A DNA stretch of 58,917 nucleotides from Nocardiopsaceae bacterium (GTDB lineage Bacteria; Actinomycetota; Actinomycetes; Streptosporangiales; Streptosporangiaceae): positions 1 through 58,917 of the forward strand of contig JAFMRC010000002.1 in NCBI GenBank assembly GCA_017354375.1, written 5' to 3'. The position numbers and the translations under genes are program-made. Below, piece after piece: positions 13,088 through 49,791 of the stretch. The first letter of the stretch is position 1. Every line of letters begins with the position of its first letter. The notes beneath the pieces are model-generated. The model was given only the letters and a program-made list of their open reading frames with translations. It had not been told where the DNA came from and made no database searches.

Positions 13088-15085
13088 TCAGGCGGGACGG
13101 TGGGAGGCGCCACGATCCGTTCGGCATAAGGGTTGGGGTTGGTCGTGCCGGTCCTGGCCCGCGGGTCGTTCCTGGCGCTCCTGTCGTTCCTGGCCCGCGA
13201 ACTGCGTGCGGTACAGCTCGGCGTACAGGCCGTCCGCGGCGAGCAGGTCGGCGTGGCCGCCGGATTCGACGATGCGCCCGCCATCGACGACCAGGATCTG
13301 GCTGGCCTCGCGGACGGTGGACAGCCGGTGCGCGATCACCAGCGAGGTGCGGCCGTCCAGCGCGACCTTGAGCGCCTGCTGGACGAGCGCCTCGGACTCC
13401 GAGTCCAGGTGGGCGGTGGCCTCGTCGAGCACGACGACCTCCGGCGCCTTCAGCAGCAGCCGGGCGATCGCGACCCGCTGTTTCTCGCCGCCGGACAGCC
13501 GGTAGCCGCGGTCGCCGACGATGGTGTCCAGGCCGTCGGGCAGCGCCTTGATCAGGTCCCAGATCTGCGCCGCCTGGCACGCGGCGATCAGCTCCGCCTC
13601 TCCCGCCGACGGGCGGGCGTAGGCCAGGTTGGCGCGGACGGTGTCGTGGAACATGTGCGCGTCCTGGGTGACGACGCCGACCACGTCGCGCAGCGACTCC
13701 AGCGTGACGTCGCGGAGGTCGTGGCCGCCGATGCTGACCGCGCCGTCGTTCGGGTCGTACATCCGCGACACCAGGTGGGTGATGGTCGTCTTCCCCGCGC
13801 CGGACGGCCCGACCAGGGCGGTCAGCTGCCCGGAAGGGGCGGTGAACGAGACGTCGTGCAGGACTCCGGCCGCGGCGCCGGCCCGCTCGGGAACCTTCAG
13901 GGCGATGGACTCCAGGGAGGCGAGGGATACCTCCGCGGCGGTCGGGTACCGGAACGAGACGTGGTCGAAGCGGATCTCCGGGGCGGCATCCGCCCGCTTG
14001 TTGCTGTTATCACCGAGGCGGGGCAGCGGCACCGCGTCCGGCTTCTCCTTGATCAGCGGCTCCAGGTCGAGCACCTCGAAGACCCGGTCGAAGCTGACCA
14101 GCGCGGTCATCACCTGGACCTGGACGTTGGAAAGCTGGGCGATCGGGGCGTACACGCGGGTGAGGAGCTGGGCGAGGGCGACCAGCGAGCCGATCTGGAA
14201 CACGCCGTCGATGACCATGCTGCCGCCGACTCCGTACACGACGGCGGTTATCAGCGCGGTGAGCAGCGTGACCGCGACGAAGACCACCTGCCCGTACATC
14301 GCGGTCACCACGCCGATGTCGCGCACCTTCCCGGATTTCACCCGGAACAGGTCGGCTTCCTCCCGCGAACGGCCGAACAGCTTCACCAGCATCGCGCCGG
14401 CCACGTTGAACCGCTCGTTCATCATCGAGCCCATTTCGGCGTTGAGCTGCATGCCCTCCCTGGTCAGCCGCTGCAGGCGGCGGCTGACCAGGCGGGCCGG
14501 GATGATGAACAGCGGGATGAGCACCAGCGCGATGACGGTGACCAGCCACGACAGGTAGAACAGCGTCGCCAGGATCACGCCGAGCGACAACACGTTGCCG
14601 ACCACGCTGGACAGGGTGCCGACGATGGCCTGCTGGGCGCCCATCACGTCGGCGTCCAGCCGGGACACCAGCGAACCGGTCTGCGCCCTGGTGAAGAACG
14701 CGAGCGGCTGCCGCTGCACGTGACCGAACACCTGATTGCGCAGGTCGTAGATCAGTCCCTCGCCGATCCGCGCGGAGAACCAGCGGTTGACGAAGCCGAG
14801 CACCGCGTCGAGCAGCGCCACTCCCGCGACGATCGAGGCGACCACGATGACCACGGTGACGTCGCGCGGGAGGATGCCACGGTCGATGATCTCCCGCAGC
14901 AGCAACGGGTTCACGACCGTGATGGCCGAGTCCAGCGACGTGCCCAGCAGGAACGCGGCGAGGGGGACGCGGTAGGGCCTCGCGTAGCCGACGATGCGGC
15001 GGATGGTCCCCGGCTTGAGCTTCTGCTTGGTGACGGACGGATCCATGCGGAAACCGCGCATCATCATAAAACCCGGAGCATGCAC
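13088..15085 (-). CDS. ABC exporter with fused permease and ATPase (MsbA/MdlB-like)
   Basis: TM domain, then GPSGAGKTT, LSGGEKQR, LDEATAHLD, IAHRLST. Confidence 0.93.
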   Translation of the reverse strand: MHAPGFMMMRGFRMDPSVTKQKLKPGTIRRIVGYARPYRVPLAAFLLGTSLDSAITVVNPLLLREIIDRGILPRDVTVVIVVASIVAGVALLDAVLGFVNRWFSARIGEGLIYDLRNQVFGHVQRQPLAFFTRAQTGSLVSRLDADVMGAQQAIVGTLSSVVGNVLSLGVILATLFYLSWLVTVIALVLIPLFIIPARLVSRRLQRLTREGMQLNAEMGSMMNERFNVAGAMLVKLFGRSREEADLFRVKSGKVRDIGVVTAMYGQVVFVAVTLLTALITAVVYGVGGSMVIDGVFQIGSLVALAQLLTRVYAPIAQLSNVQVQVMTALVSFDRVFEVLDLEPLIKEKPDAVPLPRLGDNSNKRADAAPEIRFDHVSFRYPTAAEVSLASLESIALKVPERAGAAAGVLHDVSFTAPSGQLTALVGPSGAGKTTITHLVSRMYDPNDGAVSIGGHDLRDVTLESLRDVVGVVTQDAHMFHDTVRANLAYARPSAGEAELIAACQAAQIWDLIKALPDGLDTIVGDRGYRLSGGEKQRVAIARLLLKAPEVVVLDEATAHLDSESEALVQQALKVALDGRTSLVIAHRLSTVREASQILVVDGGRIVESGGHADLLAADGLYAELYRTQFAGQERQERQERPAGQDRHDQPQPLCRTDRGASHRPA
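13101..13140 (-). repeat. Repeat family B copy, inside the extended 3' end of the ABC exporter
   Basis: GGGAGGCGCCACGATCCGTTCGGCATAAGGGTT. Confidence 0.7.
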
Positions 15086-15200
15086 GAAACCTTAAGCTAC
15101 CCGCACCCGGCGGGCGCCTTCATCCGCCGGTCGCCCCGGCGGGCCCGAGACCATCGGCCTAGGGCCCGCCGCGGCATCTGTCAGGTCAGTCCGATTCGGG

Positions 15201-15428
15201 TCAGTCGCACTCCCAGCCGACCGTCGCGCCGCCCGACGTGGAACAGTAGGAGCCGGACTGGTAGCAGTCGGCCGCGCCCCCGAGGACCCCGCCGGTGCAG
15301 GTTGCCCTCGCGAGCGCCTCACTGTCGCCCGTCCATACCGACGTCTGGGACTGCGGGTCATACCTGAACTCGACTGGAATGGTCTCCACCGGCTGGGCTA
15401 CGCGAAACGCGAACAGCTTGCTCTCCAT
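15201..15428 (-). CDS. RiPP (graspetide-type) precursor peptide, 75 aa, with a 4-Cys core
   Basis: RBS AAGGGA before the ATG; leader KLFAFRVAQP...YDPQSQ; Thr/Ser/Gly-rich core ending WECD; divergent from an ATP-grasp ligase. Confidence 0.85.
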   Translation of the reverse strand: MESKLFAFRVAQPVETIPVEFRYDPQSQTSVWTGDSEALARATCTGGVLGGAADCYQSGSYCSTSGGATVGWECD

Positions 15429-15492
15429 GAGCGATCCCTTCTGTTTGGGGGATTCACGGGCTATTGTCCGTTTTGTTGCTTATACTACGATT

Positions 15493-15544
15493 TTGAACAA
15501 TTGCCCGTCTTGAGCTATAGTACTTTAGCGCCAAAAGCCGTCAA
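15493..15544. promoter_or_regulatory. Overlapping divergent sigma70-type promoters for the RiPP operon and the precursor
   Basis: + strand TTGAAC(15493)-17-TATAGT(15516); - strand TTGACG(15544)-16-TACTAT(15522). Confidence 0.6.
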
Positions 15545-15603
15545 GAGTGGTCAAGTGCGAACTTGAACGAAAGTAGCATCAAGTGCGACTTGGTGGGACA
15601 AAT

Positions 15604-16629
15604 GTGACATCAGCCGACCAGATTGTCATCGTGACGCAGACGAAGGACGCGCACGCGGACGACGTGATCCTCGCGCTGGAAAGAACCGGGCATGAGGCGG
15701 TACGCATCAACAGCGACGAGATTCCCGCGGACGGGCGGATCTCCATGAGCTGGGGCGGCGATCACGCGCCCTTTGACGCCAGCATCGACGTGCTGACCAG
15801 CGGGCGGATGATGAATGCCGCGAGGGTTCGCTCCATCTGGTGGCGCAGGCCAGCCGGGTACGCGTTCCCGCAGGACCTCTCCCCTCAGGAGCGTGAGTTC
15901 GCGACGGACGAGACCGATCATGCCCTCATGAGCCTGTGGGCGTCCATTGACTGCTACTGGATCAGCGAGCCCGAGCGCATACGCCAGGCGTCATGGAAGG
16001 GCGAGCAGCTCTTGCGGGCTGGCCGGTTCGGGTTCGACGTGCCGCGGACGCTCGTCACTACCGATCCCGACAGCGCCCGGCGGTTCTTTTACGACTGCGG
16101 CAAGCGGATGGTGTTCAAGGCGATGTCCGGTCCGTTCCTCGGCGCGGAGACCATGTCGCGACGGCACCCCGGGGAAGATGCCGTTCCATACCAGTCCCGG
16201 ACCACCCTCGTCACCGAGGGCAATCTCGGCATGCTTGATTCGGTCCGTGCCGTGCCATGCCTGTTCCAGGAACACGTGCCCAAGAAAGTCGAACTGCGCA
16301 TCACGGTGATCGGCGAGAAGATCTTCGCGGCCGAGATTCACTCGCAGCAAAACGAGCGCACCGCCCTCGACTGGCGTAGCCACAGCGTGGACATCCCCTA
16401 CCGCGTGGCCGAGCTACCGGGCCCGGTCTCGGAAAAATGCCTGGCCCTGGTCAAGAGCTACGGCCTCAACTTCAGCGCGATCGACATGATCGTCACTCCA
16501 GATGACCGCTATGTATTCGTCGAGAACAACCCGAACGGCCAATTCATTTTCGTGGAGAACAAGCTTCCCGAGCTTGCCATGACCGATGAGCTCGCCGCCT
16601 GCCTCGCCCGGGGGTCCAATGCCGCATAA
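15604..16629 (+). CDS. ATP-grasp RiPP maturase (MvdC/MvdD, graspetide synthetase family)
   Basis: SIWWRRP, KGEQLLRAGRFGFDVPRTLVT, VFKAM, FQEHVPKKVELRITVIG, DWR, FSAIDMIV...FVENNPNGQF; start at 15583 or 15604. Confidence 0.92.
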   Translation: MTSADQIVIVTQTKDAHADDVILALERTGHEAVRINSDEIPADGRISMSWGGDHAPFDASIDVLTSGRMMNAARVRSIWWRRPAGYAFPQDLSPQEREFATDETDHALMSLWASIDCYWISEPERIRQASWKGEQLLRAGRFGFDVPRTLVTTDPDSARRFFYDCGKRMVFKAMSGPFLGAETMSRRHPGEDAVPYQSRTTLVTEGNLGMLDSVRAVPCLFQEHVPKKVELRITVIGEKIFAAEIHSQQNERTALDWRSHSVDIPYRVAELPGPVSEKCLALVKSYGLNFSAIDMIVTPDDRYVFVENNPNGQFIFVENKLPELAMTDELAACLARGSNAA

Positions 16630-17578
16630 CCCGGAGCCGTCGGGCATCCAGGCACTTGCCGCGGCCCTGCAGGAGGCCCGGGGGCGGCGGGTGGTCTTCG
16701 TGCACTCACCCCTGACCGCGGACCTGGTTCCCATCCTCTATGCGTGCCTGCGGCGGGCGGGGCACGTCGACGACCTCGACCTGGTGCTGTCGACCAGCGG
16801 GGGAACCATCACCGGCACCCGGCAGATCGCCATGCTCCTGCGTGAGTTCACCCGGCGGCTGACCATCGGCGTTCCTGGCCGGGCCCGGTCATCGGGAACC
16901 CTCCTGTGCCTGAGCGCTGACGAGCTCGTGCTCGGGCCCCTCGCCGAGCTGGGGCCGATCGACCCCACCATGGAATCGCAGGGCGCGATCCCGTCCGACG
17001 CGCCAGGGAACATCTCGGCCGAGGATATCCGGGCATTCCGCGGCCTGGCCGGGGACTGGTTCGGCGTGACGCGCGAGGAAGATCAGCTGCAGGTACTTGC
17101 CCTGCTCGCCACGCGGATCTTCCCGACCTCGCTGGCGTCGTTGTACCGCTTCGACAAGCTCGTTCGCGGGGTCGCGGCGGAACTGCTCGAATGGCAACTA
17201 CCCGGGGATGAGCGCGAGAAGGAGCGGGAAAGCATCATCGACCGGCTGGTCAGCGGCTATCACACGCACGATGACGTGATCTGCCGCCGCGACGCGCGGG
17301 AGCTTGGCCTGCGGGCGGTTGACGCGACCCCGGAAGAGGAGGAAATCTTCTGGTCGCTATCGCAGGCGCTGCGGCCCGTTACCGCGCCGGCGGTGCGATC
17401 TGTTGGTGGCGCCGGCGAAGGGCAACTCGCGGAGGGCGTGACCGCGGTCGTCGCGACCAGTGATTTCTGCGCACGCCACGTTGTCAGCCGCGAAGATCCC
17501 GCAGTGGCGGGGAACGTGCCGGGCGCGCCCGGCCGGCCGGCACCGGCCATGCGCGTGCGGTGGGAGATCGCCGATTAA
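16619..17578 (+). CDS. ClpP-class serine protease (SDH_sah / S49-like)
   Basis: DLDLVLSTSGG, VPGRARSSGTLLCLSADELVLGPLAELGPIDP, YHTHDDVICRRDARELGL; start overlaps the ligase stop. Confidence 0.85.
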   Translation: MPHNPEPSGIQALAAALQEARGRRVVFVHSPLTADLVPILYACLRRAGHVDDLDLVLSTSGGTITGTRQIAMLLREFTRRLTIGVPGRARSSGTLLCLSADELVLGPLAELGPIDPTMESQGAIPSDAPGNISAEDIRAFRGLAGDWFGVTREEDQLQVLALLATRIFPTSLASLYRFDKLVRGVAAELLEWQLPGDEREKERESIIDRLVSGYHTHDDVICRRDARELGLRAVDATPEEEEIFWSLSQALRPVTAPAVRSVGGAGEGQLAEGVTAVVATSDFCARHVVSREDPAVAGNVPGAPGRPAPAMRVRWEIAD

Positions 17579-17591
17579 CGGAGGAAGCTGC

Positions 17592-18127
17592 ATGGAAGGC
17601 GCGTGGGTACTCGCGTTCTGCCGGTGGGCCATCGGCCTCGCCTTTGGCGTTTCGGCGGTTGGGAAGGCGACTGCCATGGCGTCCTTTCGCGCTGCCCTTG
17701 CCGACTTCGATGTGCTGCCGCCGCGGCCATCACCACCGTCGGGGCCGAAGCGCTGGTCGTCGCCCTGGCCGGGGCCGGTCGGTGGCCCTCGCTAGCCGGG
17801 TTGTGCCTGGGCCTGGCCCTGCTGGCCGTGTTCTCGGCGACGCTGATCACCGCCCTGCGCAGGAGGGAGGCAGTGAGCTGCAACTGCTTCGGGCCCGGTA
17901 CCCGGCCGGTGAGCCGGTATGACCTGGTCAGGAACGCGGTGCTCGGCATGTGCTGCGTGGCCGGCCTGCTGGAGGGCGGATGGCTAGGATACGGGGGGTC
18001 TCCGGCCGGGCATCCGTCCCCGGCGGTGATCGTCCTGCTCGGGTTCGTGGCCGCCGTTTTCGTGACCATCGCGGTCAACCTCGAGGACATCGTCGAGGTA
18101 CTGCGGAAGCCTTACGTGTTCGAGTAG
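17592..18127 (+). pseudogene. MauE/DoxX-family redox membrane protein, frameshifted near 17720
   Basis: First frame MEGAWVLAFCRWAIGLAFGVSAVGK...DFDVLP; second frame ...ALRRREAVSCNCFG...DLVRNAVL (MauE CxCFG motif). Confidence 0.82.
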
Positions 18128-18141
18128 GAGTTGCGCTGGTC

Positions 18142-18747
18142 ATGAGCCCTGTCTGGGAAGCCGCCGCCCTGGCCGGCTGGGCGGCACTGCTGCTGAACCT
18201 GGCCCTGACCCTCCGCCTGGTGCGGTGGTTTCGCTCCTACCAGCAGGCCCTGCGGATGAACGCGCTGCGGGCCGAGCTACCGGAGCTGACAGTGGGCGAG
18301 CCTGCCCCGCCGTTCCGGGCGCGGGATCTGTCCGGCGCTCCGGTCAGGTCGGATGACCTGCTCAGCGGCAGGACAGCGCTGGTCTTCGTCTCCCCGCACT
18401 GCGGCACATGCCGCCGGGACATGCCCAGCCTGATGACCCTGGCGGCCCGCGCCGAACGGACCGACGGGACCCGGATGGTACTGGTGAGCGACAGCGGCCT
18501 CGGTGAGACGCGGTCCTGGGTATCGGAGATCCGCGACCAGGACAAGGTCGACCTGGCCGTCCCGGTGCTGCTGGCCTCCGGGGAAACCTCGGGCTTCCTC
18601 ACCCGCTACAACCCGCGCAGGCTCACCCCGTACTTCTGCCATATCGATGACGCGGGTAACGTGACCGCCCGCGGCCCGCTCCATTCGCCGGCCTGGACTC
18701 CGCTCGTCAGAAGGTGGAACGCTGCCGCTCACTCGGCCCAGTACTAA
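18142..18747 (+). CDS. Membrane-anchored thioredoxin-fold protein (MauD/TlpA-like)
   Basis: N-terminal TM helix, GEPAPPFRARDLSG, LVFVSPHCGTC (CxxC), TPYF cis-Pro loop; RBS AGGAG. Confidence 0.85.
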   Translation: MSPVWEAAALAGWAALLLNLALTLRLVRWFRSYQQALRMNALRAELPELTVGEPAPPFRARDLSGAPVRSDDLLSGRTALVFVSPHCGTCRRDMPSLMTLAARAERTDGTRMVLVSDSGLGETRSWVSEIRDQDKVDLAVPVLLASGETSGFLTRYNPRRLTPYFCHIDDAGNVTARGPLHSPAWTPLVRRWNAAAHSAQY

Positions 18748-18748
18748 T

Positions 18749-18979
18749 CTAGTGGCTGGCGATCGCCTTCGCCTCGTCGGGCCTTGCGGCACCGCCCCGG
18801 CCGCGCAGCTTAACGCCGGTCTCGGTGAGCAACCGGTGGACGAATCCGTACGACTTCCCCGTGGTGGCGGCTAGCGCCCGGATGGACTCCCCCGAGTAAT
18901 ACCTGTTCTTCAGGTCGGTCGCCATCTTGCTGCGATCGGTGCCCGTCACCCTGGCGCCTTTCCGGATACTGTCACCCAC
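18749..18979 (-). CDS. gbn: Small actinobacterial HTH / nucleoid-associated protein (SCO1839/Rv1473A-like)
   Basis: RKGARVTG..R..MATDLKNRYYSGESIRALAATTGKSYGFVHRLLTETGVKLRGRGG; lies downstream of an ABC-F gene; RBS GGAGG. Confidence 0.85.
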   Translation of the reverse strand: MGDSIRKGARVTGTDRSKMATDLKNRYYSGESIRALAATTGKSYGFVHRLLTETGVKLRGRGGAARPDEAKAIASH

Positions 18980-22067: not shown

Positions 22068-22179
22068 GCCACACCCGTCACTCCCGTACTTCATTGTCGG
22101 AGTTCCGGTCACTTCCGTGCCCGTCTCGTACCCGTTTGCCCGTGCGGAACTCCGACAAAGAACCGGGGCGGCCCCGCGA
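22068..22179 (-). repeat. Repeat family A, copy 2
   Basis: 14-bp perfect IR TTGTCGGAGTTCCG (22094-22107) / CGGAACTCCGACAA (22145-22158); inverted copy of 5189-5299. Confidence 0.85.
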
Positions 22180-24609
22180 GCCGAGGAACCAGCGCAGTTT
22201 CTGGCGCAGCACCGGCAGCGAGGCCGTCGCGCCGAGCATCGCCAGGAAGCCGGGCACTTCCCAGCTGATGACCGCCCCCTGGCGGGACAAGTACAGTCCG
22301 ACCTCGCGAATGCCGTACTCGTCGGAGTAGTCGAGCAGCAGGTACCCGGCGAGCTGTCTGACCTCGTCGGCGCCGAGCTTGCGGGGCATGATCGTCGCCT
22401 TGCAGTCCAGCAGGAGGCCGCCGAGGATGAAGTCCGCGTCCGCGCCGCCGATGTCCCGGCTGCCGGCGAACTCCGGGCCGCAGGCAACCGCCCGGGACGG
22501 CAGCGACCGGAACCGGGCGAAAGCCTCGTCCGAGATCTCCATCTGCCGGCCGATGTCCTCCGGGACGTATCCGGGAACCGCCGCGACCAGCTCGTCCAGG
22601 GTCGTCGCCGGGGTTGCCGACGCGAGCATGCTGTACCGCCGCACCTCTCCCGTCCGGTATACGTCCTCGTAGAACGCCGCCACGAAGCACAGCCGGGCCA
22701 GGTAGTCATCACCGATGCCGCCCGGAGCGGCGAGGTACTCCTCCACCCGCGCCATGAGGGCAGCTCCGCACTCGTGCAGCGCCCCCCTGGCCGCGGCCGG
22801 CGGTGCTCCGCGGAGCGGTCCGGTGGCGCCGACCGCCGCGATTCCCCTCGTGACCGAGTTCCCGGGCGGGCGGCCGAGCGACAGCCGGAGCCGGAAGTCG
22901 ATCGCGTGCCCGAGCGCCGCCCAGGCCGGGTATCGCACGTCCGACGGCTGGACCGGGTGGGGCAGGTTCCCGATCCGCTTCTGGTAGTCCCGGACGACCC
23001 GCCAGGTGCCCGGCAGGTTCTCCATGAGGAACGCCGAAACGGGCGCCTCGGGATACCTCAGCTGCGCCGTGAGCGGGAGATCGATGAGCGGCACTCCCCC
23101 GGCCATCCCGCCGCCCGCCGGGGCGATCGCCTTCTCGTAGTCATCCGCCCAGCCCAGGCCCGTGATATCCAGCGTCTTCCTGGCCCGCGTGACCGCGACG
23201 TAGATCAGGCGCGCCTCTGCCGCGCTGAGCGGGTGCTGCACCCCGTCGTCATCGGCGGACGGCGGGCCGAAGCCGGGGCCGATGCGGACGCTGCCCCACT
23301 CCCGGCCCTTCGCCTTGTGCGCCGTGGAGACCGTGACCGTCGCTTCCTCTTCCCTCGACAGCCGGTCCACCGCGCCGATGATCGTCTCCGCCCCGTAGGA
23401 GTCGACCAGGTCCACGAGCGACTTCAGGTCGTGAGCCGAGCTGTCGTTCTCGGCGTACTCCTGGACCGAGGCCCAGTCCGGGAACAGGAACAATTCCGGG
23501 TGACTCGTCGGCTGGCCGGCCTTGAGCTCGCGCGCGGCCTCGGCGAGCTTGCGCAGCGCGGCGCCGCCGCCGGTGATGGCAACCGGCACCCCGGCTTCAA
23601 GGAAGCCCAGCACCTCGTGCATCACGTCGGCGTTGCCGCGGCACAGCACGGCGTCCGGGGCGTTCAGGGCGTCCGGGGACCGGGTCCGCGTCACGCGGGA
23701 ATCCCCGGGGCCGGCGCCCGCCAGCCGCATGTCCGACCCGGCATGCCGAAGCCACCGGTTGGCGACCTCCGCGATCGCGGGCCCGAACCGGAAGGACCGG
23801 GTCAGCCGTGCTTGCCGCGCGGGAAACCCGGTCATCACGTCCCGGGCCGCGCGCCAGGCGTAGATCTGCTGCGCCGGATCCCCGACGCAGATCCGCTGCG
23901 CGGCCTGGGCGAGGAAGATCGCCTCCAGCACCGGATTCGTGTCCTGGGCCTCATCGAGCATGATGAAATCGCCCGGCAGGACCGGGCGGGTCATCGCCCA
24001 TATCTTCATGTAGTGGTCGTGCTCGAACCGGAGGCGGCCGGATGTCGCGCGCAGGTCGTCCCAGGCCCTTTCCGCATAACGGGTCATGGCGACTGCCACG
24101 TAGTCAGTGGCTGCTGGATTCAGCCCGTTGACCGGTTCCATGTGCCTGGCCATCGGCTCGGTGTCGTTGCTGTAGCAGAACCTGCGAACCATGTTCATGA
24201 CCAGGCGCGCCTGGTGGAACCTGGTGATGCGGGCGCCGTCGACATCCAGGTCGCCGGTGATGCCGAGCAGCCGCGCGGTCCGGGCCGTGGGAATCCGGGC
24301 CGCTCCCAGCCGTTCGGCGTAGGCGCGCCCGACGGCCGCGTAGGCGATGGAGTGGGCGGTGCGGCATTCGACGTTCGGCCCGAAGCGCTGCTGGGCATCG
24401 CTGCGCGCGGCGCGGTTGAACGCCATGTACAGGCCGCGCGCCCGCGTGGCCGCCGCCATCATCACGAGCGTCGATGTCTTGCCGGTGCCCGCGCCGGCCA
24501 CTACCGCTAGGTCGTTACCGCTGGTGAAGGCGTCCCGGGCACGCACCTGCTCTTCGGTTGGCTCGGCCTTCTTCCCGGCGCTCAGGTCAGTCCCCGTCCC
24601 TCTTGCCAC
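22078..24609 (-). CDS. UvrD-like SF1 helicase fused to a C-terminal PD-(D/E)XK (RecB-like) nuclease
   Basis: AGAGTGKT, LDEAQD, VGDPAQQIY, SFRFG, STAHKAKGREW, YVAVTRAR; C-terminal GADADFILGGLLLDCKAT...RQLAGY. Confidence 0.88.
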   Translation of the reverse strand: MARGTGTDLSAGKKAEPTEEQVRARDAFTSGNDLAVVAGAGTGKTSTLVMMAAATRARGLYMAFNRAARSDAQQRFGPNVECRTAHSIAYAAVGRAYAERLGAARIPTARTARLLGITGDLDVDGARITRFHQARLVMNMVRRFCYSNDTEPMARHMEPVNGLNPAATDYVAVAMTRYAERAWDDLRATSGRLRFEHDHYMKIWAMTRPVLPGDFIMLDEAQDTNPVLEAIFLAQAAQRICVGDPAQQIYAWRAARDVMTGFPARQARLTRSFRFGPAIAEVANRWLRHAGSDMRLAGAGPGDSRVTRTRSPDALNAPDAVLCRGNADVMHEVLGFLEAGVPVAITGGGAALRKLAEAARELKAGQPTSHPELFLFPDWASVQEYAENDSSAHDLKSLVDLVDSYGAETIIGAVDRLSREEEATVTVSTAHKAKGREWGSVRIGPGFGPPSADDDGVQHPLSAAEARLIYVAVTRARKTLDITGLGWADDYEKAIAPAGGGMAGGVPLIDLPLTAQLRYPEAPVSAFLMENLPGTWRVVRDYQKRIGNLPHPVQPSDVRYPAWAALGHAIDFRLRLSLGRPPGNSVTRGIAAVGATGPLRGAPPAAARGALHECGAALMARVEEYLAAPGGIGDDYLARLCFVAAFYEDVYRTGEVRRYSMLASATPATTLDELVAAVPGYVPEDIGRQMEISDEAFARFRSLPSRAVACGPEFAGSRDIGGADADFILGGLLLDCKATIMPRKLGADEVRQLAGYLLLDYSDEYGIREVGLYLSRQGAVISWEVPGFLAMLGATASLPVLRQKLRWFLGSRGRPGSLSEFRTGKRVRDGHGSDRNSDNEVRE

Positions 24610-48971: not shown

Positions 48972-49076
48972 CTAACCCGGTGACCATCCGGCCGCGCGGA
49001 GAGCCCCCGGGACGGCCTTCCGGCCCAGGCTGCGGTCGAGGAAGAACCTAGGCGGCGGCTGACCTGGTGACGACAC
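48972..49076 (-). pseudogene. Truncated VapC45-like PIN toxin
   Basis: Hand translation from GTG 49076: ...PRFFLDRSLGRKAVPGALRAAGWSPG*, overlapping the antitoxin stop. Confidence 0.75.
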
Positions 49077-49791
49077 GGATCGCGTCCTCGACCTCGTCGC
49101 GGGACAGGCCGAACTCCCCGGCTACGGCATCGACCGGCTCGCCTGCCCGGAACAGGTCGATCACGTCATCGACACTGGCCCCTCCACTAGCGAACCTCGG
49201 ACGGCCGAAAGCGTGGTCCGGGTCGATCGTCACCTTGGCGACCTCGTACTGAGGAAGCCGGATCATCTGGGCATAGCCGTCCGGGGCGAAATCGACCCGC
49301 CGCAGGTACAGGTCCACGACCTCGCTGAATACTCGCTGGTCGTTCCTTACCACGACGAGTTCGCGTGCGTAATCACCATCCGGCGTGCTCGCCGCGTGCC
49401 GCGCGTAGTCGTACAGGACTTCCGCCCCGTCGGTGTACAGCCGCTTGCTCGCCAGGGCGTGCTCAAGCCCCAGTTCCCGCGCCAGCACAGCGACGGCGGG
49501 ACGGATCCGCTGCATCGGAACACCAGCGTTCCGGAACGCCGCCAGCACGTACGCCTCGGCGAGCCCGATGAACGGGACCGCTGGATCATTCCGGCGCGCG
49601 GGCCGCGCCGCGGTGATGACCGGCTCCGCCCGGACAGCGCGAGCACCCGCCCCGCGCCGCCGCTCGTAGCCGTACGCCCAGGTCGTCAGCGTGGACGGCG
49701 GGACGGCGATGTAATTCGCCGCTTCCCCGATGCCGTATAGCAACGTCGCGAACCGGTCTACGCGCAAGCCCTTCACCTCCCGCCCGCTCAA
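49048..49791 (-). CDS. DUF433-domain antitoxin (VapB45/Rv2018-like)
   Basis: LYGIGEAANYIAVPPSTL..W, FIGLAEAYVL, IDPDHAFGRPRF...AGEPVDAVAGEFGLS. Confidence 0.88.
   Translation of the reverse strand: MSGREVKGLRVDRFATLLYGIGEAANYIAVPPSTLTTWAYGYERRRGAGARAVRAEPVITAARPARRNDPAVPFIGLAEAYVLAAFRNAGVPMQRIRPAVAVLARELGLEHALASKRLYTDGAEVLYDYARHAASTPDGDYARELVVVRNDQRVFSEVVDLYLRRVDFAPDGYAQMIRLPQYEVAKVTIDPDHAFGRPRFASGGASVDDVIDLFRAGEPVDAVAGEFGLSRDEVEDAIRVVTRSAAA

What the first reader, a model, noticed from the sequence alone, without database searches (positions are those of the whole stretch)
15201..18747. Candidate new RiPP system: graspetide ligase, ClpP-class protease and MauE/MauD-like disulfide pair acting on a Cys-rich precursor
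Seen: a 75-aa precursor divergent from a tightly coupled four-gene operon (ATP-grasp ligase, SDH_sah/ClpP-class protease, MauE-like protein with CNCFG, TM-anchored CxxC thioredoxin). Known: MvdC/D-type ligases make side-chain ester/amide cross-links; MauD/MauE mature the disulfide-rich small subunit of methylamine dehydrogenase; many actinobacterial graspetide clusters carry a PIMT-like methyltransferase, which is absent here. Inference: a hybrid peptide with ester macrocycles plus two dedicated disulfides, with the leader removed by a protease class I do not know from graspetide pathways. I know no characterised example, but cannot exclude that it appears in bioinformatic surveys.
Basis: partly seen in the sequence, partly recalled or inferred. 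Interest (0 to 1): 0.92.

Follow-up and report, generated by a model that had tools for sequence, protein, structure and literature searches.

The report
Disulfide-stapled graspetide cluster, group 9 branch
This is a conserved bacterial gene cluster that likely turns a short cysteine-rich peptide into a ring-shaped molecule with one ester bond and two disulfide bonds; it belongs to an already catalogued peptide group for which we found no tested member, and in this genome its membrane redox gene is split by a frameshift.

Summary
Real, conserved and interesting, but less new than proposed. Precursor, ATP-grasp ligase, ClpP-fold SDH protease (Ser91/Asp115/His217) and CxxC thioredoxin are confirmed. 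All 16 related loci with ligase identity of 44% or more and at least 4 kb downstream carry the thioredoxin and MauE (one truncated); 14 carry SDH; none of 11 more distant loci carries any of them. About 150 precursor relatives share C-[T/S]...C...C...C-D with mostly even Cys counts. This points to one Thr-Asp ester plus two disulfides, not several esters. Two loci with this gene set match group 9 rows of the 2026 graspetide survey, which already notes a serine proteinase in over half of group 9; MauE/MauD beside Cys-rich precursors was noted in 2020. I found no characterised member, and no window-type precursor in that table. New lead: charge bias puts both redox sites on the cytoplasmic face, unlike the MauEs tested so far. 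Leader removal by SDH is untested, and SDH is missing in 2 of 16 loci. Verdict: new variant of a known kind.

The parts
15201..15428 (-). Precursor peptide, 75 aa: leader with KLFAF, YDP-x-x-Q and W-x-G motifs; core C44-T45...C55...C62...C74-D75
   Evidence: relatives at 75% and 67% identity
15429..15603 (.). AT-rich spacer (46% GC) with promoter-like sites on both strands
   Evidence: consensus matches only
15604..16629 (+). ATP-grasp ligase (graspetide synthetase, MvdD pre-ATP-grasp domain); start codon inferred, an upstream GTG at 15583 is possible
16619..17578 (+). SDH-family ClpP-fold serine protease with Ser91, Asp115, His217; no strongly hydrophobic segment
17592..17795 (+). MauE, 5' piece (first helix with the conserved Lys); homology ends near 17724, then out of frame to a stop
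17729..18127 (+). MauE, 3' piece in another frame (conserved Glu, CNCFG, remaining helices)
18142..18747 (+). Membrane-anchored thioredoxin-fold protein (CGTC), MauD/TlpA-like
15077..18787 (.). Extent of the insertion: 3.7 kb here, about 100 bases between the same flanks in same-genus genome G779
   Evidence: joints across it

Best explanation
The cluster likely makes a small secreted graspetide of the published group 9: the ATP-grasp ligase likely binds the precursor's leader and closes one side-chain ester between Thr45 and Asp75, the MauE/thioredoxin pair likely forms two disulfides among the four cysteines, and the ClpP-fold protease possibly removes the leader, while in this assembly the MauE gene is split by a frameshift. 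Shown: the genes, their order, the conserved catalytic residues, the conserved C-[T/S]...C...C...C-D core, the frameshift, the empty site in a relative. Inferred: the ester and its position (predicted -18 Da), the disulfides (predicted -4 Da; pairing unknown), electron flow core -> thioredoxin CxxC -> MauE CxC -> quinone by analogy with tested MauEs, cleavage near Ala40 by the protease, and export by an ABC transporter, which most relatives encode in the cluster but this copy lacks. Charge bias suggests that both redox sites face the cytoplasm, the same compartment as the ligase, the protease and the signal-less precursor. The biological role is most likely that of a protease inhibitor or antimicrobial, by analogy with other graspetides; nothing here tests it.
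For: Neighbourhood: 16 of 16 loci with ligase identity >=44% and >=4 kb downstream have the thioredoxin and MauE (L033 only 32 model positions), 14 of 16 have SDH; 0 of 11 loci under 44% have any. An SDH profile search of 401 genomes hit 6 besides G000, all 6 next to ligase, MauE and thioredoxin. Precursors: of 68 four-Cys cores, 59 have T/S after Cys1, 57 have D/E after Cys4, 56 have both (about 1 expected from composition); 22 have only one acidic residue. In 99 hits that score on the leader alone, 63 of 80 Cys-rich cores keep C[TS]...C[DE]. Cys counts among 124 Cys-rich cores: 4:68, 5:11, 6:38, 7:0, 8:6, 10:1. MauE: Lys, Glu and CxCFG invariant in 16 of 16, the residues that the preprint found conserved, with CXC needed for DsbB-like activity. 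Thioredoxin CxxC invariant in 17 of 17. SDH: Ser and Asp in 20 of 20, His in 18 of 18 that reach it; ClpP is the best fold match. Group 9: small ORFs of L095 and L094 are identical to group 9 rows of the Carter table.
Against: No chemistry was measured. The MauE frameshift and the missing ABC exporter may disable this copy; L033 also has an internally deleted MauE beside an 8-Cys precursor. SDH is absent in L019 and L102 and present beside a 1-Cys precursor in L026. L001 and L017 have about 6 kb upstream and no detected precursor. All MauE/thioredoxin loci fall in one clade (support 88, quick tree), so the link with Cys-rich cores is one evolutionary event, not many. The precursor profile was built from Cys-rich rows; in the leader-only subset the even bias above four Cys is weaker (23 even, 10 odd) and 10 of 99 have no Cys. 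The window's core has other Thr/Ser and Asp/Glu residues that could form further, non-conserved esters.
Confidence: 0.6

Rival explanations
1. The cysteines are not oxidised to disulfides: the MauE/thioredoxin pair would keep them reduced or reshuffle them, for metal binding (as in Zn-tetracysteine cysimiditides), for a Cys-Asp thioester, or for self-protection against an oxidised peptide.
For: A cytoplasm-facing thioredoxin fits a reductase as well as an oxidase. The preprint cites an earlier study that found MauE potentially a reductase. Graspetide synthetases can form thioesters on engineered substrates. Cysimiditides were seen as a search listing only.
Against: Extra Cys come mostly in pairs (6, 8, 10), which a four-ligand metal site does not need. 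A Thr/Ser donor is conserved next to Cys1. Two MauEs act as oxidases in E. coli.
Confidence: 0.2
2. Same product, but the SDH protein is not the leader peptidase: it would act as an immunity or clearance protease or as a partner of the ligase, and another protease would free the core.
For: Absent in 2 of 16 complete loci. A 2023 review of RiPP leader proteases has no occurrence of 'Clp', 'S14' or 'S49'. Carter et al. suggest that group 9 co-occurring proteins may serve self-resistance, and show partner-dependent synthetases.
Against: The triad is intact. The ABC transporters scanned from three related loci have no peptidase domain (L092, L097, L027). SDH follows the ligase across distant branches, including the two-Cys type in L028.
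Confidence: 0.4
3. This particular copy is a decaying remnant that makes no mature product, even if relatives do.
For: MauE frameshift; the ABC gene found between ligase and SDH in the closest relatives (L045, L016, L001; begun in L002, L005) is missing, and the best ABC matches elsewhere in G000 are under 40% identical; the whole block is an insertion.
Against: Precursor, ligase, SDH and thioredoxin are intact. In run X2 (a related strain) the contig leaves the window sequence exactly at the break and goes on with letters that read R-L-N, as intact relatives do. In run X1 the high-depth contigs stop at 17720 and resume at 17828, so they neither confirm nor refute the break. Ligase directly followed by SDH also occurs in L014, L017, L025, L026, L033.
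Confidence: 0.3
4. The disulfides form outside the cell after export, with MauE and the thioredoxin facing outward as in the MauEs tested so far.
For: The two tested MauEs are predicted four-helix proteins with a periplasmic CXC and they replace DsbB in E. coli. No topology predictor was run here; segment limits were set by eye.
Against: Mean K+R per segment in 15 MauEs alternates 0.0 / 3.3 / 0.1 / 5.2 (CxC loop) / 0.5 / 2.3; in 18 thioredoxins it is 0.1 before and 3.6 after the helix. The genome's own ResA/TlpA-like protein shows the reverse, 5 before and 1 after.
Confidence: 0.35

Closest known systems
Group 9 graspetides (Carter et al. 2026, PMC13097080; group numbering from earlier surveys)
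   Same: Leader with KLFAF and Trp; C-[T/S] at the start of the core; serine proteinase in over half of the clusters; two loci with the window's gene set are group 9 rows; L028 joins a canonical two-Cys precursor, ligase and SDH.
   Different: The common group 9 cores listed end in D-x-G-x-x-C (two Cys) or D-x-x-C-A; the window type has four Cys and ends in C-D. Eleven motifs typical of the window type found no such precursor in the table as held (file cut). MauE and thioredoxin are not named in the sections read; the supplementary PDF with the co-occurrence table could not be read.
Microviridins (MvdC/MvdD) and SAV_5884/graspimiditide clusters
   Same: Homologous ATP-grasp ligase (PF21068; TIGR04184, 04185, 04187).
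   Different: Scores are below all three cut-offs; one ligase only; no PIMT; no microviridin core motif.
MauE/MauD of methylamine dehydrogenase and DsbB-like MauEs (bioRxiv 10.64898/2026.03.05.709764)
   Same: PF07291 with CxCFG and conserved Lys/Glu, next to a CxxC thioredoxin.
   Different: No other mau gene in the cluster; five predicted helices and a predicted cytoplasmic CxC loop, against four helices and a periplasmic loop; the client is a short peptide; MauD HMM far below cut-off.
mauE/mauD-containing candidate RiPP families of decRiPPter (Kloosterman et al. 2020, PMC7794033)
   Same: mauE, in one family mauD, beside Cys-rich precursors; a role in precursor modification was proposed.
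   Different: Those precursors have 8 or more Cys; the passage does not link them to a graspetide ligase or an SDH protease.
Stryphnines, sponge knottins (PMC13418204)
   Same: Disulfide-rich peptides with one side-chain ester.
   Different: Animal origin, Ser-Glu ester, no ATP-grasp enzyme found.

Membership tests
Graspetides | ATP-grasp ligase of the MvdC/D clade with catalytic motifs | tested here: met
   PF21068 above cut-off; K172, D294, E307, N309 invariant in 53 sequences; reading these as catalytic motifs is recalled
Graspetides | Adjacent precursor with conserved leader and conserved Ser/Thr/Lys donor before an Asp/Glu acceptor | tested here: met
Graspetides | Side-chain ester or amide actually installed | not testable with these tools
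   needs co-expression and mass spectrometry
Graspetide group 9 | Ligase clusters with group 9 ligases | tested here: met
   Window ligase is 47-49% identical to those of L094 and L095, whose small ORFs are group 9 rows, and lies in one clade with them; the paper's network itself was not re-run
Graspetide group 9 | Serine proteinase in the cluster | tested here: met
   SDH present; that the paper's 'serine proteinase' is SDH is inferred from L028, L094, L095
Graspetide group 9 | Core consensus of listed members (C-[T/S]...D-x-G-x-x-C, or ...D-x-x-C-A) | tested here: inconclusive
   C-T shared, C-terminal pattern differs; the group's rows are heterogeneous
Microviridin MvdC/MvdD equivalogs | TIGR04184/TIGR04185 above cut-off | tested here: not met
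   210.8 against 475 and 173.8 against 425 bits
Graspimiditide / SAV_5884 family | TIGR04187 above cut-off and a PIMT-like methyltransferase | tested here: not met
   248.4 against 350 bits; no PIMT hit in cluster or flanks scanned
DsbB-like MauE | CXC-F-G motif with conserved Lys and Glu | tested here: met
   invariant in 16 intact relatives; present but split between two frames in the window
DsbB-like MauE | CXC loop facing the periplasm or outside | tested here: inconclusive
   charge bias points inward; no predictor or reporter test
SDH family ClpP-fold protease | Ser-Asp-His triad and ClpP fold | tested here: met
   triad assignment from family motifs is recalled; NF047768 below cut-off
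SDH family ClpP-fold protease | Proteolysis of the precursor | not testable with these tools
   needs in vitro assay

The most novel reading that the evidence does not exclude
A graspetide branch has recruited a cytoplasm-facing MauE-thioredoxin relay that writes disulfides into a ribosomal peptide inside the cell, next to a Thr-Asp ester, giving a compact tricyclic scaffold with freely varying loops, and frees it with a ClpP-fold leader peptidase, a protease class not found in the RiPP leader-protease review searched.
Probability: 0.25. Interest if true: 0.82.

Novelty: new variant of a known kind. Interest (0 to 1): 0.58.

Why it matters
Carter et al. list only acetylation, aspartimide-forming methylation and aminomalonate formation as earlier secondary modifications of graspetides, so dedicated disulfide formation would be a new one. 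About 150 diverse precursors keep a fixed C-T...C...C...C-D frame with variable loops, which suggests a tolerant enzyme set for engineering constrained peptides. The cluster gives MauE and an SDH protease a small, defined candidate substrate, so two poorly understood protein families become directly testable. If the redox pair faces the cytoplasm, it would be a natural route to cytoplasmic disulfide formation. For experiments, an intact relative (L001, L006, L011, L092-L097) is a better choice than this copy.

Tried and rejected
Complex prediction of MauE with the thioredoxin (L001 pair, own alignments): no verdict, score 0.07, mark 0.32. Structure prediction of the precursor: low confidence (pLDDT 56.6, pTM 0.26), no disulfide pairing drawn. 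ESM Atlas for the precursor: best 0.80, no usable lead; the SDH query did not complete. PDB sequence search with the SDH profile: nothing significant. No RNA holder listed. Viral contigs: no SDH relative. Plasmids: best ligase match 40%, a Cys-free precursor without SDH, MauE or thioredoxin; SDH matches are distant; no DNA match to the L028 ligase. No near-identical intact MauE among 24 hits; best intact ones are 74% identical. Reads did not settle the frameshift. The careful tree did not finish; the quick tree was used. A second MauE in the genome (C344) lies in an unrelated context, and a second ATP-grasp (C423, 31%) was not followed up. Earlier findings: two look-ups, nothing. Ramesh 2021 and Choi and Link 2023 are not held; Lee 2020 was not read. 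Makarova 2022: no 'ClpP', 'thioredoxin', 'disulfide', 'DoxX' or 'methylamine' in the main text; one MauE row in a supplement that is cut. Rejected: several conserved esters (one conserved pair), PIMT-type cluster, methylamine dehydrogenase locus, chance neighbourhood.
Full report
Observation. The window holds a 75-aa ORF at 15201-15428 (-) and, across a 175-base AT-rich spacer with promoter-like sites on both strands (3 found, 0.3 expected), four closely spaced genes. The first is an ATP-grasp ligase with the MvdD pre-ATP-grasp domain; it scores best with TIGR04187 but below the cut-offs of TIGR04187, 04184 and 04185. The second is an SDH-family protease (PF01972) whose model matches ClpP best (Foldseek E 4e-5, model pLDDT 69); Ser91 and Asp115 are kept in 20 of 20 relatives and His217 in the 18 that reach it. 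The fourth is a membrane-anchored CGTC thioredoxin. The third, MauE, is split: the ATG at 17592 gives 67 aa matching Pfam positions 2-47, and positions 44-127 lie in another frame. Against intact 178-aa relatives about 16 bases are missing near 17725.

Is the frameshift real? Not settled. In run X1, which may be the source sample, the high-depth contigs stop at 17720 and resume at 17828. In run X2, a related strain from the same study, the contig departs from the window at 17725 with eight letters that continue in frame as R-L-N, as in two of the four intact relatives aligned. An intact allele therefore probably exists in the population, and the window carries either a strain-specific deletion or an assembly error. 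L033 has an independently deleted MauE.

Context. The block is an insertion: same-genus genome G779 has about 100 bases between the same two flanking genes, against 3.7 kb here. Of the ligase loci fetched (20 duplicate or own-genome loci left out), 16 have 44% identity or more and at least 4 kb downstream: all 16 have the thioredoxin, 16 have MauE (one only as a fragment), 14 have SDH. Of 11 such loci under 44%, none has any. L027 (45%, 3.3 kb downstream) has only an ABC gene and precursors with 1 and 0 Cys. Among 401 genomes of the same order, an SDH profile hit 6 others, all beside ligase, MauE and thioredoxin; a ligase profile hit 11 others, and the 7 best are those 6 plus one with MauE and thioredoxin but no SDH. 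Most relatives also encode an ABC transporter; the window does not. In a quick tree of 41 ligases all MauE/thioredoxin loci lie in one clade (support 88), so their link with Cys-rich precursors counts as one event. L001 and L017 show no precursor within the DNA held.

Precursor family. A profile of 19 precursors found 153 relatives among 1.84 billion representatives; the 150 listed were analysed. Of 148 with the leader Trp, 124 have four or more Cys in the core: 68 with four, 11 with five, 38 with six, none with seven, 6 with eight, 1 with ten. In the four-Cys cores Thr/Ser follows Cys1 in 59 of 68, Asp/Glu follows Cys4 in 57, both in 56 (about 1 expected from composition); 22 have a single acidic residue. 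Median spacing is C-x9-C-x6-C-x12-C. Because the profile favours such cores, I repeated the count on 99 hits that pass on the leader alone: 63 of 80 Cys-rich cores keep the motif, 10 have no Cys, and the even bias above four Cys weakens to 23 against 10. The simplest reading is one ester, Thr45 to Asp75, and two disulfides: -22 Da in all. This is inference.

The redox pair. MauE keeps Lys, Glu and CxCFG in 16 of 16 intact relatives, and the thioredoxin keeps CxxC in 17 of 17. A 2026 preprint (10.64898/2026.03.05.709764; parts 1-3 of 4 and passages read) shows that two MauEs replace DsbB in E. coli, need the CXC, and are predicted to be four-helix proteins with the CXC in the periplasm; it also cites a study that saw MauE as a possible reductase. 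In this cluster's MauEs (15 rows; the window and L093 left out) the mean K+R count alternates 0.0, 3.3, 0.1, 5.2, 0.5, 2.3 over the N-terminus, four loops and C-terminus, with the CxC in the most basic loop; the 18 thioredoxins have 0.1 before and 3.6 after the helix. By the positive-inside rule (established knowledge) both sites would face the cytoplasm. The genome's own ResA/TlpA-like protein shows the opposite pattern (5 and 1), but another anchored CxxC protein on C432 shows the same pattern as the cluster's, so the orientation is not unique; segment limits were set by eye and no predictor was run.

What is known. Carter et al. 2026 (PMC13097080; abstract, sections 5 and 7, parts 1, 102 and 103 of the precursor table and searches in it; supplementary PDF not readable) state that over half of group 9 clusters contain a serine proteinase. 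Group 9 rows include 'KLFAF' leaders with C-[T/S]...D-x-G-x-x-C cores. A small ORF of L095 and the precursor of L094 are identical to group 9 rows, and both loci have ligase, SDH, MauE, thioredoxin and ABC genes; L028 has a canonical two-Cys precursor, ligase and SDH. So the architecture is inside a published group. Eleven motifs typical of the window-type precursor found no such row (the file is cut), and searches of that paper's two readable supplements for MauE, SDH and the Pfam numbers found nothing. Kloosterman et al. 2020 (PMC7794033, section 7) noted mauE and mauD beside precursors with 8 or more Cys. Full-text searches: 'graspetide' with 'MauE' 0 papers; 'MauE' with 'RiPP' and 'ATP-grasp, MauE, precursor peptide' only the decRiPPter paper and its preprint; 'graspetide' with 'disulfide' 16 listed, none by title on such a product; SDH terms gave no relevant title. 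Makarova 2022 (sections 6 parts 2-3 and 7, passages, supplement search) does not describe it. Ayikpoe 2022 (passages) reports products from groups 2, 7, 8, 19 and one unnumbered, not 9. A protease review (PMC10885120, term search) has no Clp/S14/S49 entry. Stryphnines (passages) combine disulfides with an ester without an ATP-grasp. Most subscription papers, among them Lee 2020 and Ramesh 2021, were not available, so a prior description cannot be excluded.

Mechanism and rivals. Best reading (0.6): leader-guided single ester by the ligase, two disulfides through thioredoxin and MauE, leader removal possibly by SDH, export by an ABC transporter. The rivals concern separate steps and do not sum to one: cysteines kept reduced, metal-bound or used as thioester donors (0.2); SDH not the leader peptidase (0.4); this copy non-functional (0.3); oxidation outside the cell (0.35).

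Verdict. A real, conserved and apparently uncharacterised sub-branch of group 9 graspetides with a dedicated MauE/thioredoxin pair. It works like a graspetide and meets the testable membership features; it is not a microviridin or graspimiditide cluster. New variant of a known kind, interest 0.58; the cytoplasmic disulfide relay with a ClpP-fold leader peptidase would deserve about 0.82 at probability 0.25.

Noticed in passing
L033:8012-8343: MauE is internally deleted (only the N- and C-terminal ends remain) beside an 8-Cys precursor; second case of MauE decay in the family.
   Followed up: partly
L093-L096 precursors; L097:9568-9771; L102:9222-9422: Other core types use the same gene set: C-T-K-F...C...C...W-D-T-G-P-I-G-C (four Cys), a two-Cys core, and a four-Cys core in a cluster without SDH. 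The published table lists a different, Asp-rich neighbouring ORF as the precursor for the L095 cluster, probably in error.
   Followed up: partly
P0200, P0230, P0233, P0242, P0257 and others; L027; L108: The same leader is joined to Cys-free, Thr/Asp-rich cores, showing leader reuse across core types; L108's precursor is listed in group 13 of the published table.
   Followed up: partly
G000 C344 (L099) and C423:26210-27097: A second MauE-family gene in an unrelated context, and a second, distant ATP-grasp ligase (31% identical).
   Followed up: no
G000 C432: A short membrane-anchored CxxC protein with the same charge pattern (basic residues after the helix) as the cluster's thioredoxin.
   Followed up: no
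window:39291-42728 (-): 1145-aa Eco57I/N6 methylase-domain protein with DUF7008 in a low-GC stretch (55-62%); likely a restriction-modification or defence gene.
   Followed up: no
window:33317-34609 (-): A 104-aa ORF matching only the C-terminal end of McrBC (PF10117); the region looks fragmented.
   Followed up: no
window:53494-54059 (+); 49048-49791 (-): Phd/YefM antitoxin with ParE-family toxin pair; separately an HTH_66/DUF433 protein.
   Followed up: no
window:12010-13080 (+); 22078-24609 (-): A sulfotransferase-family gene two genes from the precursor (not seen as part of the insertion), and an 843-aa UvrD-like helicase with a long unannotated C-terminal part.
   Followed up: no
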